Of a stretch of 64,000 nucleotides of DNA, positions 36,001 to 42,000 are shown in pieces. Position numbers: made by a program. The first letter of the stretch is position 1; each line of letters starts with the position of its first letter. Source of the DNA: Mizuhopecten yessoensis (taxonomy: Eukaryota); assembly GCF_002113885.1 (NCBI RefSeq), contig NW_018403901.1, positions 252,755 to 316,754 of the forward strand. The letters run 5' to 3'.

Positions 36001-39000
36001 ACACAGAAAGCATACACACCAAGTATTTACATCGAATTTTAAGGTAACATTAACAATAATAATCACATGCTCATAATATTCTGTTACAGATTTGTCAGGC
36101 CTCTGGTTCGAATGTCCAGTTAAGCATTGACCACGGTAGCTGTAGCACTTCGGGCAATCCCTCTACTGTCCCCGCTGGAGGAATGACTGCAACGCTGACC
36201 CCCTATGGTATGTACTGCAGTCTATTGACTTAACATAGAGTATTACTTTTTTGAATAAATCTTTCATAAGTGCGTTAGAAGTAACTCATTTGTTGATTTT
36301 ACATAGATTATCATCTAAGCACCAATCGATGCCGTGACAAAATATATAATTGAAAAGAAAACGATGAAAAACAAATCTGTTTTTATTCCTTTTGGTAGTA
36401 TGTTTTATAACTACCTGGTTTTCTAATAATTTGTTACATTTTATCAAGTGTATGACATCAACGCTTTAATAATATATTGTTTTTCTTTATGTGTGCCTTC
36501 CTTGTCGGGATAAACAGTTACCTGCCGTAAGTATATATTTCTCAATTCAGATAAACTATTTCTTAAGTACATGTTTCACTGGCATCGAGTTATTGACGTC
36601 TTTTTTATCTTAATTTCGTACTTAGTTATTCGCTTTTCTAAAGTATCATATATATCGAATCAATGACGTGCTTCGATTTTTAATTTCCTGATAAATTATT
36701 CGCTTGTGATTTAACCTATTATTAGATTAATAGGACATGAATGAAGTATTGTTAAGTATGAAACCGGTTCAATTGTCTAACTAGTAACATCACTTCTCCT
36801 CCAAGGGATACATGCCGTTAAGGCTATCTCCAACTGGCATAGCTTCATCAATGGTTATCGTAAAAAGAATTATATGTTTGATTTCTTTGGCAATAATTAC
36901 CATTTATCACTAATTAAGATTGAAGTCGACTTTCCCGTTCATTCTGGATTGTATTTTTTGCTATTCCACAGCGTTCACAACGACCAGTGCTACGACAACA
37001 TGTAGGGAGCATTTGTTGTTTTATTATCACTTTTTGGGGGTTTTCTGTTTTGCATGTGCTTGATTTGTATACCACTTTTAACAAAACTTGTGTTTGATCT
37101 CACAACTTAATATCACATCTTCTATACCACTCCCAAGTCCCTACCAATACATGGACTGAAAGTTGCATGTTTAACTGTGAATTGCACTGAATCAATTATT
37201 TAACCATACGCGTACCAATGGGAACACATGCAAGCTTGCATTAATTTCTCGACGTTTAAATCACTTGTTGTCCCTGGTTACTCTCTAAAATAAATGGTTT
37301 GTTATGTTTCGGTTTTTCGAAGTATATCTTGAAATTGTGTAAGTCGGGTTAATATGAGCGAGTCTAACTCATTCCATCGTATCGTGTTTCTCGAGTCACA
37401 GGGGATTTTCAGTATCACATTTGTATGCCAACACAAATATACTCTGACCGACTCCCTCGCCATCTACATTTCCAGTCAAACGATAGCCTGGTAATACTTG
37501 GCATGTCTTTTATATCCTACTTTTTCCTTGTTTGCTTACCTTTTTGGAGACTGATACTATTTGTTTTATCAGCATAATTCCTATATTCACTTGGTTGTTG
37601 TAAATTGCCTCACCTAAATAATATCATATATGGTACCCCCCTGATGGGGAGATGTTTTGTTTTTGTTTTCGTCAATATCAATCTTTTCCGCCTCACAAAT
37701 TGCACATTCCCCAGCTCTCTCTCTCTACTATCTGTATATCTTACTCGTTTAAACGCTGACTAATGAGATGGTGTTGATTTCCATTGTTATTCCAATACTC
37801 GCGATGTTCTTAATTTCAATAAATATTGAATGAAAGTTATAAATGATTATATTGCACGATTATATACATTCGATTTTTAACTGAATCATTTACATTCTAT
37901 GTATGGATGTATTTTCTGTAATTTGTCTATTTACCGCTATTTACGCTATTTACCTGAGCGGTGGCGACATCAATATATGTTGCGCTATGTACATATGTTT
38001 GCTGTATTGTAGAATTAGTTTATTGATCGAGTCCAGTGTGTCTTTTTGTTCAATTGGCACGAATTCATGTTAAAACTATTTTGACGGTATCCTAGTTCAG
38101 TTAACTTGGTGATTGTCAATCGTGTCCTCTAGACGATTAATTATCCACATATCAAAGCCATTATAATTATTCAATATACGCATTTTTATTTGTTTTTATT
38201 TTACTCGTTTGTTGTTTTACAGCCTTAAAAACGACCATAAGGGCTAGTGTATTAAGCAGATTTGTTGGTATAGGGATTGTTAAGTACTTTTGTTTCAGTG
38301 ATTCACTACAACGGATGTCTCCCCTCTTCTAATCCGCATGTAATCGAACTGCACACATCAGTTTATCTTATAGAAAGCAGTAATATTAATTTGATAATAA
38401 TTGAAGATATGAACTCAATATGTGTCATTAATACATAATCAGTGCAACGGGATTTGTTCGCCATTCGAATGCTGGAGAATAAATATTGGAATTAATCAAT
38501 TGATTGATTGCCACTTTATAAATATTCTCTGCTGTGGAGGATCATCCGTTTACTCTGTGCGATTTGTTGTTTCACAGCGTTAGCAACGACGACCAATACG
38601 GGTAACACTTTACTATTAGATGTGTTGAGACAAAGGTTTCATTTCCTCCGATTCTATTTTCCTTATTTTCTTTATATATATATTTTTTTAATATTTTTTC
38701 CTCTGATTATACCAACCCAAGTAATGTATCCTTTCCAAGTTGTAACCATTATTTCAGTTACCTGTACATTGTCATCCCTTACGTTCAGGAATATTCTGTT
38801 GAAACAAAATGTAAGCCATATAATGCATTGTTAAGCATGCATGGATGGCTGTAGATAGTTGATTTACTCGCATGTATAACTTGAATTACATAATTGTATT
38901 ACTAACCCCCTAGTCTAACATACTTGCGATTTCATTTAAGAGTAGCGTCGTTTGGTTATTGCTAGCAACATGATGCCATTTATTCATTACACGTTATGAA

Positions 39001-42000
39001 ACTATAGAACTGATCCATCCATTATATATATATGATTATTTGGTGATATTAAGGGATATATAAGAGAAGAGTATAACGTTGAAAATAAAAGACATAAAGT
39101 GTTTAAATACAACCCTTAACAAAATCAAGTCTATGCTATAATTCTCAACCCAGATAAACTATTTCTTAAGTACATGTTTCACAGCCATCAAGTTATTGAC
39201 GTCCTTTTTAACCTAATTTCGTACTTAGTTATTCGCTTTTATAAAGTATCATATAAATCGAATCAATGACGTGCTTCGATTTTTGATTTCATGATAAGTT
39301 ATACGCTTGTGATTTAACCTATTATTAGATTAATATGACATGAATGAAGTATTGTTAAGTATGAAACCGGTTCGATTGTCTATCTAGTAACATCACTTCT
39401 CCTTACGCGCTATCACGTGATACATGCCGTTAAGTCTGTCTCCAACTGTAATAGCTTCATCAATGAGTATCTTAAAAAGAATTATATGTTTGTTTTCTTC
39501 GGCATTAACTACCATTTATCACTAATTAAGATTGAAGTCGACTTTCCCGTTCATTCTGGATTGTATTTTTTGCTATTCCACAGCGTCCGCAGCGGCCAGT
39601 GCTACATCATGTAGGGAGCATTTGTTGTTTTACTATCACCTTTCGGGTTTTTTCTGTTTTGCGTGTGCTTGATTTGTATACCACTTTTAACCAAACGTAT
39701 GTTTGATCTCACAACTCCATATCACATCTTCATAACCACTCCCAAGTCCCTACCCAAACATGGACTGAAAGTTGCAAGTTTAACTGTGATTTGCACTGAA
39801 TCAATTATTCGACCATACGCGTACCAATGGGAACGCATGTAAACTTGCATTTATTTCTCGACATTTAAATAACTTGTTGTCCCAGGTTACTCCCTGAAAT
39901 AAATGGTTTGTTATGTTTCCGTTTTTAGAAGTATATCTTGAAATTGTTTACGTCGGGTTTATATGAGTGAGTCTAACTCATTCCATCGCATCATGTTTCT
40001 CGAGTCACAGGTGATTTTCAGTATCATATATGTATGCCAACATAAATATACTCTGACAGACTCCCTCGCCATCTACATTTCCAGTCAAACGATAGCCTGG
40101 TAATACTGATCCCAAGTCTTTTTATTACTGTAGGAAAATACTAGGCATGTCTTTTATATCCTACTTTTCCCTTGTTTGCTTACCTTTTTAAACACTGATT
40201 ATATTTGTTTAATCAGCATAATTCCTATATCCACTTGGTTGTGGTAAATTACCTCACTTAAATAATATCATATATGGTGCCCCCTAATGTGGTGTTTTTT
40301 TGTTTTTATTTTCGTCACTATCAATCTTTTCTGCCTCACAAATTGCACATTCCCCAGCTCTCTCTCTACTATCTGTATATCTTACTCGTTTAAACGCTGA
40401 CTAATGAGATGGTGTTGATTTCCATTGTTATTCCAATACTCGTGAAGTTCTTAATTTCAAATAATATTGAAACGAAGTTATAAATGATTATATTGCACAA
40501 TTATATACATTCGATTTTTAACTGAATCATTTACATTCTATGTATGGATGTATTTTCTGTAATTTGTTTATTTACCGCTATTTACCGCTATTTACCTGAG
40601 CGGTGGCGACATCAATATATGTTGCGCTTTGTACATATGTTTGCTGTATTGTAGAATTAGTTTATTTCATTTGGCACGAATTCATGTTAAAACTATGTTT
40701 GCGGTATCCTAGTGCAGTTAACTTGGTGATTGTCAATTGTGTCCTCTGGACGATTAATTATCCACATATCAAAGCCATTATAATTATTCAATATACGCAT
40801 TTTTATTTGTTTTTATTTTACTCGTTTGTTGTTTTACAGCCACAAAAACGACCATAAGGGCTAGTGTATTAAGCATATTTGTTGGTATAGGGATTGTTAA
40901 GTACTTTTGTTTCAGTGATTCACTACAACGGATGTCTCCCCTCTTCTAATCCGCATGTAATCGAACTGCACACATCAGTTTATCTTATAGAAAGCAGTAA
41001 TATTAATTTGATAATAATTGAAGATATGAACTCAATATGTGTCATTAATACATAATCAGTGCAACGGGATTTGTTCGCCATTCGAATGCTGGAGAATAAA
41101 TATTGGAATTAATCAATTGATTGATTGCCACTTTATAAATATTCTCTGCTGTGGAGGATCATCCGTTTACTCTGTGCGATTTGTTGTTTCATAGCGTTGG
41201 CAATGACGACCAATACGGGTAACACTTTACTATTAGTTGTGTTGAGACAAAGGTTTCATTTCCTCCGATTCTATTTTCCTTATATTCTTTATATATATAT
41301 AGAATAAAAACAAATTTTCAGATCCTCCCTTAGGCTTTTCTGCCTTCTAGGGCTTCTTCAGGCGGATTGTATGTATTATATATTTTTTCCTCTGATTATA
41401 CCAATCCAAGGAATGCATCCTTTCCTAGTTGTAACCATTATTTCAGTTACTTGTTCATTGTTATCCCTTACGTTCAGGAATATTGAAAAAAATGTAAGCC
41501 ATATAATGCATTGTTAAGCATACATGGATGGCTGTAGATAGTTGATTTACATTTTACTCGCATGTATAACTTGAATCACATAATTGTATTGCTAATCCCC
41601 TAGTCTCATTGTTTTACAGCCTTAAAAACGACCATAAGATGTAAAATTTTATTTTTATATTTAGATAATATCCAAACAGTGATTATTTAAAATGATATAT
41701 ATATATATTAAAATGATATATATATATATATATATAGCAGGGCGACTTTATTCTACTAGGTTCAGCAAGTGACTTCTTTTTGAAAGAAGAACAGTATATT
41801 TCTCAAATTTTATTACTCTCGAAACATAAACATTATTTTGCGAGCTTGCTTTTCTCTGTAATAAATGCGGACCTTTAATTTTTTCAAATTCATAGAAATT
41901 ACAATGTATTACGAAACGCAAAATTTAAAGTCTAACGCCCAAATCGGATTTTGACATCACACAAATGGTATTTCTCGACACTGTCCAAATGTCTTCTATT

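What the first reader, a model, noticed from the sequence alone, without database searches (positions are those of the whole stretch)
36539..41606. 2.4-kb intragenic duplication in which the microexons diverge faster than the introns
The duplication copied three microexons. Exon 36972-37001 versus 39584-39610 differs by five substitutions, all non-synonymous (F>S, T>A x3, T>S), plus an in-frame codon deletion, while the ~70 nt of intron upstream is identical. The second pair differs tta>aca (L>T) and the third acg>atg (T>M) plus one silent change, within intron sequence that is almost identical. The frame-preserving indel supports real exons. The excess of replacements suggests diversifying selection on glycosylation sites (inference; the numbers are small).
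Basis: partly seen in the sequence, partly recalled or inferred. Interest (0 to 1): 0.72.

Follow-up and report, generated by a model that had tools for sequence, protein, structure and literature searches.

The report
Duplicated stalk microexons in scallop gene
A scallop cell-surface protein gene has duplicated a 2.4-kb piece carrying tiny exons for its threonine-rich stalk; the duplication is real and one new exon is in the annotated transcripts, but selection driving the exons apart is not shown.

Summary
The window is Yesso scallop (Mizuhopecten yessoensis) DNA. The finding lies in LOC110457484, a DUF7042-family type I membrane protein.

The tandem duplication is real. Copy A is 36534-38916 and copy B is 39137-41606; 2204 of 2346 aligned bases are identical, with 10 indels.

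Exon status is only partly supported. Ten database protein models use A1 (FTTTSATTT), A3 (LATTTNT) and B1 (SAAASATS) as freely combined cassettes. The second "pair" (A2/B2) and B3 appear in 0 of 10.

Exons differ at 9/75 sites against 133/2271 for introns (Fisher one-sided 0.035). Stratified tests give 0.075 and 0.086. 4.3-6.7% of 27-nt intron windows are as diverged as exon 1. dN versus dS is not significant (p=0.43).

Part of the contrast comes from unusually conserved introns:
- The 70-nt acceptor flanks differ at 1/210 sites.
- A 315-nt block is identical, most likely a gene-conversion tract.

Orthologues show A1 is ancestral, so all five replacements fell on B1.

Verdict: an ordinary lineage-specific exon duplication that lengthens an alternatively spliced stalk. 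Diversifying selection is possible but unproven.

The parts
25620..49691 (+). Coding span of the host gene, Mizuhopecten yessoensis LOC110457484 (KP79_PYT13295). It encodes a signal peptide, a DUF7042 ectodomain, a Thr-rich stalk, a TM helix and a tail. Exons read off are 25620-25689, 32799-32991, 33483-33586, 34671-34802, 35131-35307, 35569-35684, 36090-36207, 36518-36526, then the stalk cassettes, 42440-42604, 43630-43656, and 49534 or 49546 to 49691.
   Evidence: One exon (35133-35306) is 100% identical to XP_021364478. tblastn of P0012 maps all larger exons at 92-100% identity. Pfam PF23069 scores 37.8 bits against a cut-off of 27.
36534..38916 (+). Duplicate copy A (2383 nt). It starts 8 nt after the 9-nt exon.
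39137..41606 (+). Duplicate copy B (2470 nt), 93.9% identical to A over 2346 aligned columns, with 10 indels.
38917..39136 (.). 220-nt spacer between the copies. It has no counterpart after copy B and no clear match elsewhere in the window.
36518..36526 (+). Constitutive 9-nt exon (V-T-C), phase 1-1, just upstream of the duplication.
   Evidence: VTC is present in all 10 M. yessoensis models. Splice context cag|TTACCTGCC|gtaagt.
36972..37001 (+). Microexon A1, 30 nt, FTTTSATTT. It is a cassette exon and carries the ancestral form.
   Evidence: Present in 8 of 10 M. yessoensis models and 7 of 9 Pecten maximus models with the identical peptide. Mapped.
39584..39610 (+). Microexon B1, 27 nt, SAAASATS. 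It is the duplicated copy of A1, with 5 replacements and a 3-nt deletion, and is a cassette exon.
   Evidence: Present in 7 of 10 M. yessoensis models. Mapped. Differences.
38578..38601 (+). Microexon A3, 24 nt, LATTTNT; a cassette exon.
   Evidence: Present in 7 of 10 models. Mapped.
41195..41218 (+). B3, the copy of A3 (LAMTTNT). The acceptor has changed from cag to tag. It is in no model; exon status unsupported.
   Evidence: 0 of 26 proteins. Context.
38223..38246 (+). The frame is open in the right phase but the donor gtgtat is weak. It is in no model.
40840..40863 (+). B2, the copy of A2 (TKTTIRA). It is in no model.
41609..41640 (+). Third, isolated copy of the A2 acceptor plus exon start (30/30 identical to 38212-38241), sitting at the end of copy B. 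It could be read as a 21-nt phase 1-1 exon (LKTTIR, donor gtaaaa). It is in no model.
36898..36974 (+). 77-nt run identical in both copies, ending at the A1/B1 acceptor. These are the only zero-substitution 70-nt windows in the diverged half (8 of 1132).
38260..38574 (+). 315-nt intron block identical in both copies. The likely cause is a gene-conversion tract.
   Evidence: 0 of 2000 permutations reach 315. No Rfam match and no unusual fold, z = 0.21.
42440..42604 (+). Exon for the end of the stalk (TTETSSGG), the TM helix and the KLKKKK stop-transfer; 165 nt, phase 1-1.
   Evidence: Helix 343-382 in the model, with per-block mean pLDDT 41-75 across it (71-75 for residues 351-370).

Best explanation
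Anatomy (near certain). A tandem, lineage-restricted duplication of about 2.4 kb lies inside the stalk-coding part of scallop gene LOC110457484. The protein has a signal peptide, a cysteine-containing DUF7042 ectodomain, a short Thr/Ser/Ala-rich juxtamembrane stalk, one TM helix and a cytoplasmic tail.

How the stalk is built. It is made from tiny symmetric (phase 1-1) cassette exons, so any subset can be spliced in without breaking the frame. The duplication added one more usable cassette, B1. Annotated products therefore carry 1, 2 or 3 stalk modules.

Likely effect (inferred). Stalk length and the number of potential O-glycosylation sites are varied by splicing.

Force behind the pattern (less certain).
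- A1 keeps the ancestral, conserved peptide.
- The redundant copy B1 drifted within the permitted Thr/Ser/Ala composition under weak constraint.
- The acceptor-side intron flanks are held by purifying selection on splicing signals.
- A central part of the introns was homogenised by gene conversion.

Together these make exons look faster than introns without exon evolution needing to exceed the neutral rate.
For: - Identity of the gene.
- Duplication.
- Cassette use in 10 models: A1+A3+B1 in 4, A1+B1 in 2, and A1+A3, A3+B1, A1 alone and A3 alone in 1 each.
- Every junction residue in those models fits the phase 1-1 reading of the window exons.
- Transcript-length contigs of an Argopecten-like scallop (P0004, P0023-P0026) and 9 Pecten maximus isoforms also differ by stalk modules.
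- A1 is ancestral. Its peptide matches P. maximus 9/9, Ylistrum 8/9 and the Argopecten-like sequence 7/9. The rest of the stalk matches only 6/17 to 8/17, against 241/280 for the ectodomain.
- The replacements give Ala and Ser, residues that orthologous stalks also use.
- Flank constraint: 1/210 versus 132/2061 substitutions, p=4e-5. For A1 alone it is 0/70 versus 95/1104, p=0.005.
- Heterogeneous divergence: 16-19 substitutions per 200 columns at 36534-37336, and 0-3 at 38165-38564. The 315-nt identical block was reached by 0 of 2000 permutations.
- Exon excess not robust: stratified p 0.075 and 0.086. Empirical windows 4.3% and 6.7%. dN versus dS p=0.43.
- In vertebrate microexons, regulation lies mainly in the flanking introns (passages of bioRxiv 10.1101/2024.09.17.613571).
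Against: - Replacement-site divergence is 8/48 against 133/2271 for introns (one-sided p=0.007). For exon 1 it is 5/17 against 95/1136 locally (p=0.012).
- If all five exon-1 changes are put on B1, only 0.71 are expected at half the local intron rate (Poisson P=0.0008). Pure drift would then need an unlucky cluster.
- In the low-divergence zone 38132-38660, 4 of 7 substitutions fall in the 48 nt of A2 and A3 (binomial 0.002). The zone was chosen after seeing the data.
- Six of seven W/S-class exon changes run AT>GC from A to B, against 44:49 in introns (p=0.11). This hints at a directed process.
- I saw protein models only, not the reads behind them.
- O-glycosylation is inferred from composition.
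Confidence: 0.5

Rival explanations
1. After the duplication, positive or diversifying selection drove replacements in the copy-B exons. In B1 this changed Thr to Ala (three times) and removed one Thr codon, lowering O-glycan density. The result is a functionally distinct, low-glycan spacer module. Selection also keeps the exon copies different while conversion homogenises the introns.
For: - 8 replacement changes against 1 silent.
- Replacement density 8/48 versus intron 133/2271, p=0.007.
- All 5 exon-1 changes fall on the derived copy, with Poisson P=0.0008 at half the local intron rate.
- All 8 aligned third-codon positions of A1/B1 are identical while 5 first or second positions changed (read).
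- Exon differences sit inside or beside an otherwise identical tract.
- B1 is in 7 of 10 models, so it is expressed as protein-coding sequence.
Against: - dN versus dS is not significant (Fisher 0.43; only 18 silent sites).
- 4.3-6.7% of intron windows are equally diverged.
- Stratified Fisher tests give 0.075 and 0.086.
- Two of the three 'pairs' are not supported as exon pairs, so their changes may be plain intron changes.
- One change is a CpG transition.
- The case was picked because it looked odd.
- There are no population data.
Confidence: 0.25
2. A mutational explanation. The B1 cluster arose in one or few events rather than by five independent fixations. Candidates are error-prone repair, GC-biased gene conversion, or ectopic conversion from a similar Ala-rich stalk exon elsewhere in the genome.
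For: - Four of the five changes lie within 9 nt (36975-36983), and all four are AT>GC transitions.
- The AT>GC excess in exons is 6:1, against 44:49 in introns.
- Substitutions in the introns are visibly clustered too: nine clusters of 27-nt windows with 5 or more changes.
- Conversion is active at this locus (315-nt identical tract).
Against: - No donor sequence exists in the window. The B1 core with up to 3 mismatches matches only itself. The rest of the genome could not be searched.
- The W>S asymmetry is not significant (p=0.11).
- The 3-nt spacing of the A>G changes also fits codon-wise selection.
Confidence: 0.15
3. An assembly artefact. Two diverged haplotypes of a single-copy segment were laid in tandem.
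For: Bivalve genomes are highly heterozygous (recalled). The record is a scaffold of 591,364 bp. The second copy ends irregularly, with a 30-nt extra piece.
Against: - There is no N near the junctions; the only N in the window is at 27509.
- 6% divergence and 10 indels of up to 72 nt.
- Six of 10 protein models carry A1 and B1 in one chain, in genomic order, and 5 of 10 have A3 followed directly by B1.
- Orthologues in three other scallops also have three or more stalk modules.
Confidence: 0.05

Closest known systems
Tandem exon duplication as a source of alternatively spliced exons (general phenomenon; literature recalled, not read here)
   Same: Adjacent homologous exons with homologous flanking introns, the same phase, both spliced, and one copy diverging faster than the other.
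   Different: The classic cases are mutually exclusive pairs. Here A1 and B1 are cassettes that co-occur in 6 of 10 models. The duplication therefore lengthens a low-complexity linker rather than swapping a structured segment. The exons are only 24-30 nt.
Alternatively spliced mucin-like stalk or extracellular segments of vertebrate surface proteins (CD44 variant exons, CD45 exons A/B/C, the O-linked-sugar exon of VLDLR; recalled, no call)
   Same: A Ser/Thr-rich, presumably O-glycosylated segment outside the membrane, encoded by frame-neutral cassette exons whose inclusion varies length and glycan load. A1 has 7 Ser/Thr in 9 residues.
   Different: There is no sequence relationship. The modules here are 8-10 residues instead of tens. 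Glycosylation and tissue regulation are untested. The ectodomain is a DUF7042 domain of unknown function.
Schistosoma micro-exon genes (MEGs; definition recalled)
   Same: Strings of symmetric microexons that allow combinatorial protein variants.
   Different: In MEGs most of the coding sequence is microexons and the products are secreted. Here seven ordinary exons of 70-193 nt encode the ectodomain, and only the stalk and tail use microexons. The protein is membrane-anchored. It is not a member.
SRRM3/4-dependent microexons of bilaterians (bioRxiv 10.1101/2024.09.17.613571, passages seen)
   Same: Exons of 30 nt or less whose upstream intron flank is the conserved part. A UGC lies 11-20 nt upstream of the exon start (9-18 nt upstream of the AG) in A1/B1 and A3/B3 (read).
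   Different: Those exons are themselves highly conserved and neural. Here the exon sequence is the labile part. Tissue pattern and dependence on any factor are unknown. UGC within 25 nt is common by chance.

Membership tests
DUF7042 (PF23069) domain proteins | Pfam HMM match above the gathering score | tested here: met
   P0012 scores 37.8 bits against a cut-off of 27, over residues 182-289. PF23069 is precomputed for 5 of 5 hits. The atlas hits are leads only.
Tandem exon duplication | Neighbouring exons and their flanking introns are homologous | tested here: met
   2204 of 2346 aligned columns are identical between 36534-38916 and 39137-41606.
Tandem exon duplication | Both copies of an exon are spliced into mRNA | tested here: inconclusive
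   Met for A1/B1 at the level of database protein models (8 and 7 of 10 models); the underlying reads were not available. Not met for A2/B2 (0 of 10 each) or B3 (0 of 10).
Mutually exclusive duplicated exons | The two copies never occur in one transcript | tested here: not met
   FTTTSATTT and SAAASATS occur together in 6 of 10 models.
Schistosoma-type micro-exon gene | Most of the coding sequence is built from symmetric microexons between two longer end exons (definition recalled) | tested here: not met
   Seven exons of 70-193 nt encode residues 1-303. Microexons are confined to the stalk and tail.
Alternatively spliced mucin-like stalk | Ser/Thr-rich segment next to the membrane, encoded by frame-neutral cassette exons | tested here: met
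   Stalk residues 304-341 lie between the ectodomain and helix 343-382. Phase 1-1 is shown.
Alternatively spliced mucin-like stalk | The segment is O-glycosylated | not testable with these tools
   Inferred from composition only.
Exons under positive selection | Replacement rate significantly above the silent rate | tested here: not met
   Nd=8 over N=48 and Sd=1 over S=18; Fisher p=0.43.
Exons under positive selection | Exon rate above the neutral (intron) rate | tested here: inconclusive
   Pooled 0.035; stratified 0.075 and 0.086; empirical windows 0.043-0.067; replacement sites 0.007; lineage-polarised Poisson 0.0008.
SRRM3/4-type regulated microexon | UGC-containing enhancer between the branch point and the AG; neural or endocrine inclusion | tested here: inconclusive
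   UGC is present upstream of A1/B1 and A3/B3 and absent upstream of A2/B2/C2. Tissue pattern is not testable.

The most novel reading that the evidence does not exclude
The new exon B1 was reshaped by positive selection into an Ala-rich, glycan-poor spacer. Selection keeps the duplicated stalk exons different while gene conversion keeps erasing differences in the introns between them. The scallop would then be tuning the length and glycan density of a surface receptor by gaining, diversifying and freely combining microexons, and the locus might vary in copy number between individuals.
Probability: 0.25. Interest if true: 0.45.

Novelty: new member of a known kind. Interest (0 to 1): 0.27.

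Why it matters
If the simple reading holds, this is a clean, young example of how a frame-neutral microexon is born by tandem duplication and enters a combinatorial splicing set at once. The ancestral copy stays conserved while the new copy changes. That is useful as an illustration and for improving mollusc annotation, but it is not surprising.

It would matter more if resequencing showed copy-number variation or a selective signature. That would point to adaptive tuning of a glycosylated stalk on an uncharacterised DUF7042 surface protein.

The case also shows a pitfall. Conserved splice flanks and conversion tracts lower intron divergence, and this can mimic fast-evolving exons.

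Tried and rejected
Searches and tests that gave nothing:
- RNA genes. Rfam at gathering score on the whole window gave 0 matches. Rfam at E up to 1 on 36200-42500 gave 0. ARAGORN found 0 tRNAs.
- The 315-nt identical intron block does not fold better than shuffles (z = 0.21, 55 of 100 shuffles as good). A hosted structured RNA is not supported.
- Pfam on 10 long open frames gave only sub-threshold DUF7043/7044 hits and TM-like noise.
- The protein atlas gave DUF7042-7044 clusters at scores of 0.84 or less, which are leads only.
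- No homologue of the 220-nt spacer or of the sequence after copy B was found in the window.
- No second copy of the B1 core was found in the window, so no conversion donor was seen.
- Literature searches returned 0 papers for 'DUF7042', for the gene and protein identifiers, and for 'exon duplication' + 'mucin-like' + 'alternative splicing' + 'stalk'.
- 'microexon' + 'scallop' returned 7 papers. None is about this gene, judged by title and abstract start in the listing.
- Searches were seen as listings only.

Structure prediction. P0012 with an 8-row alignment gave a poor model (mean pLDDT 40.2, pTM 0.34). I use it only for the TM helix 343-382 (per-block mean pLDDT 41-75; 71-75 for residues 351-370). 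I ran no fold search, because a low-confidence model gives meaningless matches.

Ideas considered and dropped:
- A Schistosoma-type micro-exon gene, dropped once the gene was identified.
- A hosted ncRNA.
- A simple clean head-to-tail duplication. Copy B stops 220 nt short of the period, and a 30-nt third copy of the A2 acceptor and exon start sits at its end.

Not done:
Exons were searched one at a time, each exon pair was analysed on its own, and full-length comparisons used database proteins returned by the searches.
- Genome contigs, phages, plasmids and E. coli genomes hold no mollusc DNA and were not searched. Orthologous genomic loci, read depth and RNA-seq therefore stayed unchecked.
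- No supplementary files were consulted.
- The single N (27509) was left as it is.
- Nothing in the window was taken for human.

Full report
WHAT THE WINDOW IS. The window is AT-rich eukaryotic DNA (32-44% G+C per 2-kb block, about 34% overall) with one N, at 27509. It has no tRNA or Rfam match. I searched single exons only. The translation of 35133-35306 is 100% identical to 'uncharacterized protein LOC110457484' of the Yesso scallop Mizuhopecten yessoensis. It is 88-91% identical to proteins of Pecten maximus, Ylistrum balloti and Argopecten irradians and to an unnamed transcript-derived protein. All 5 hits carry PF23069.

tblastn of isoform X1 (P0012) places the coding exons on the + strand from 25620 to 49691. 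Pfam finds DUF7042 above threshold, 37.8 bits against 27. Nothing in the window looks human.

THE GENE PRODUCT. Read from the database proteins and the exon map, the protein has these parts:
- a signal peptide;
- an ectodomain of about 280 residues;
- a 9-nt exon (VTC);
- a Thr/Ser/Ala-rich stalk;
- an exon encoding TTETSSGG, a hydrophobic helix and KLKKKK (42440-42604);
- a cytoplasmic tail.

The structure prediction was poor (mean pLDDT 40.2). It shows only the helix 343-382 (per-block mean pLDDT 41-75; 71-75 for residues 351-370) and no secondary structure at 301-342.

THE OBSERVATION. The duplication is real. Copy A is 36534-38916 and copy B is 39137-41606, with a period of 2603 nt. 2204 of 2346 aligned columns are identical, and there are 10 indels.

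It is not a clean duplication:
- A 220-nt spacer (38917-39136) has no counterpart after copy B.
- A 30-nt third copy of the A2 acceptor and exon start sits right at the end of copy B. It is identical to the copy-A version.

At least two events, or one complex event, are needed to explain this.

- A1/B1: T>C, A>G, A>G, A>G, A>T, plus a 3-nt deletion.
- A2/B2: TT>AC.
- A3/B3: A>G (silent) and C>T (ACG>ATG, a CpG transition).

ARE THEY EXONS? All candidates are multiples of three, with two leading bases and one trailing base. That is the same phase as the end of exon 36090-36207, the 9-nt exon and the TM exon.

The ten M. yessoensis models use three of them in every combination:

| Stalk exons used | Models |
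|---|---|
| A1+A3+B1 | 4 |
| A1+B1 | 2 |
| A1+A3 | 1 |
| A3+B1 | 1 |
| A1 alone | 1 |
| A3 alone | 1 |

The residue at every junction is the one predicted from the split codons. B1 is therefore a used exon, and A1 and B1 sit in one chain in 6 of 10 models. The peptides of A2/B2 (KTTIR) and B3 (LAMTTNT) occur in 0 of 26 fetched proteins. A2/B2 have a weak donor (gtgtat), and B3 has cag changed to tag at the acceptor. I saw protein models only, not the reads behind them.

EXON VERSUS INTRON DIVERGENCE. Exons differ at 9/75 sites and introns at 133/2271. The tests give the following results:

| Test | Result |
|---|---|
| Pooled Fisher, one-sided / two-sided | 0.035 / 0.043 |
| Exon 1 (5/27) against all intron | 0.020 |
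| Pairs 2+3 (4/48) against all intron | 0.31 |
| First part, tested separately | 0.075 |
| Second part, tested separately | 0.086 |
| Intron-only 27-column windows with 5 or more substitutions, whole duplicate | 93 of 2167 (4.3%) |
| Same, in the diverged half | 75 of 1122 (6.7%) |
| Nei-Gojobori, each exon on its own: 8 replacement / 48 sites, 1 silent / 18 sites | Fisher 0.43 |
| Replacement sites against introns | 0.007 |
| Exon-1 replacement sites against local introns | 0.012 |

Divergence is very uneven along the duplicate. There are 13-19 substitutions per 200 columns from 36534 to 37739, falling to 3 and then 0 at 38165-38564. This is why I tested the two parts separately.

The frame-preserving deletion says little, because 3 of 9 intronic indels are also multiples of three.

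WHY THE INTRONS LOOK SLOW. Two features lower intron divergence exactly where the exons are.

1. Conserved acceptor flanks. The 70 nt upstream of the three acceptors carry 1 substitution in 210 columns, against 132 in 2061 for the rest (p=4e-5). For A1 alone it is 0/70 against 95/1104 (p=0.005). The only 8 of 1132 substitution-free 70-column windows in the diverged half are the ones abutting the A1/B1 acceptor. This fits purifying selection on splice signals. In vertebrate microexons, regulation lies mainly in the flanking introns (passages).

2. An identical block. A 315-nt block (38260-38574) is identical in both copies, and 0 of 2000 permutations reach that length. It has no Rfam match and folds no better than shuffles. 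Gene conversion is the simplest cause.

POLARITY. A1's peptide is identical in P. maximus (9/9) and nearly so in Ylistrum (8/9) and the Argopecten-like sequence (7/9). The remaining stalk matches only 6/17 to 8/17, against 241/280 for the ectodomain. A1 is therefore ancestral and constrained, and all five replacements and the deletion fell on B1. The isolated third copy matches A2, so the TT>AC change also fell on copy B.

With the changes placed on one lineage, a Poisson model at half the local intron rate expects 0.71 replacement changes in exon 1, against 5 seen (P=0.0008). However, the model assumes evenly spread, independent substitutions, which the intron windows contradict. The case was also chosen for looking odd.

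Four of the five changes lie within 9 nt and are all AT>GC. Across the exons, 6 of 7 W/S-class changes run AT>GC, against 44:49 in introns (p=0.11). This equally fits a clustered mutational or biased-conversion event. No donor was found in the window.

MECHANISM. Shown:
- a tandem duplication inside the gene;
- symmetric cassette microexons;
- B1 used in the models;
- asymmetric change between the copies;
- constrained acceptor flanks;
- a homogenised tract.

Inferred:
- The stalk is O-glycosylated.
- Splicing tunes its length and glycan load.
- B1 (4 Ser/Thr of 8 residues) is a poorer glycan carrier than A1 (7 of 9).
- The B1 changes accumulated under weak, composition-limited constraint.

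I give the anatomy more than 0.9. For the force behind the exon changes I give 0.5 to weak constraint, 0.25 to selection, 0.15 to a mutational cluster, and 0.05 to an assembly artefact.

COMPARISON AND NOVELTY. This is a member of the known class 'tandem exon duplication feeding alternative splicing', of the cassette rather than the mutually exclusive type. It works like the alternatively spliced mucin-like segments of CD44, CD45 or VLDLR (recalled). It is not a Schistosoma-type micro-exon gene.

The exons A1, A3 and B1 and the isoforms are already in public annotation. I found nothing in print on the duplication, its asymmetry or the gene family.

LIMITS.
- No mollusc genome, read set or population data could be reached.
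- Supplements were not consulted.

Noticed in passing
42982-43026 (+): A 45-nt phase 1-1 exon with good splice sites (tttag|...|gtaaga) encodes VRVFRKDIFDIRRFP. The peptide is in 8 of 16 fetched proteins of other scallops but in 0 of the 10 M. yessoensis models. It is probably an unannotated cytoplasmic-tail cassette exon.
   Followed up: partly
43630-43656 and 49534/49546 (+): The tail is also combinatorial. A 27-nt cassette (GKYLPPING) is present or absent, and two acceptors 12 nt apart at the last exon add or drop ECVI.
   Followed up: partly
about 15500-19600 (+): The upstream neighbour is a paralogous DUF7042 gene (KP79_PYT13294; 85% identity to one exon, possibly because the query ran a few codons beyond the exon). 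Its orthologues in P. maximus (LOC117328785) and Y. balloti have a TM helix but no Thr-rich stalk. The M. yessoensis model (316 aa) lacks the TM end and may be truncated.
   Followed up: partly
5867-6385 (-): An open frame of 172 codons encodes PTTT/KPTTT mucin-like repeats on the opposite strand, overlapping 21-60-nt tandem repeats. It is probably an exon of another, mucin-like gene.
   Followed up: no
442-5049; 46016-48018; 55714-57217: Three satellite arrays: 32-nt unit x144, 81-nt unit x25 (inside the last intron of the gene), and 48-nt unit x31. The last keeps a 223-codon open frame at 56023-56694, which is most likely an accident of the repeat.
   Followed up: no
P0005 (Argopecten irradians model), stalk region: This model has about 40 residues of non-stalk sequence (EDLCSLIGNQQLG...) where the other scallops have Thr-rich modules. 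It looks like retained intron or a mis-modelled exon in that annotation.
   Followed up: no
41297-41368 and 40102-40136 (copy B); 38024-38048 (copy A): There are large copy-specific indels (72, 35 and 25 nt) between the duplicates. I did not determine whether each is an insertion or a deletion.
   Followed up: no
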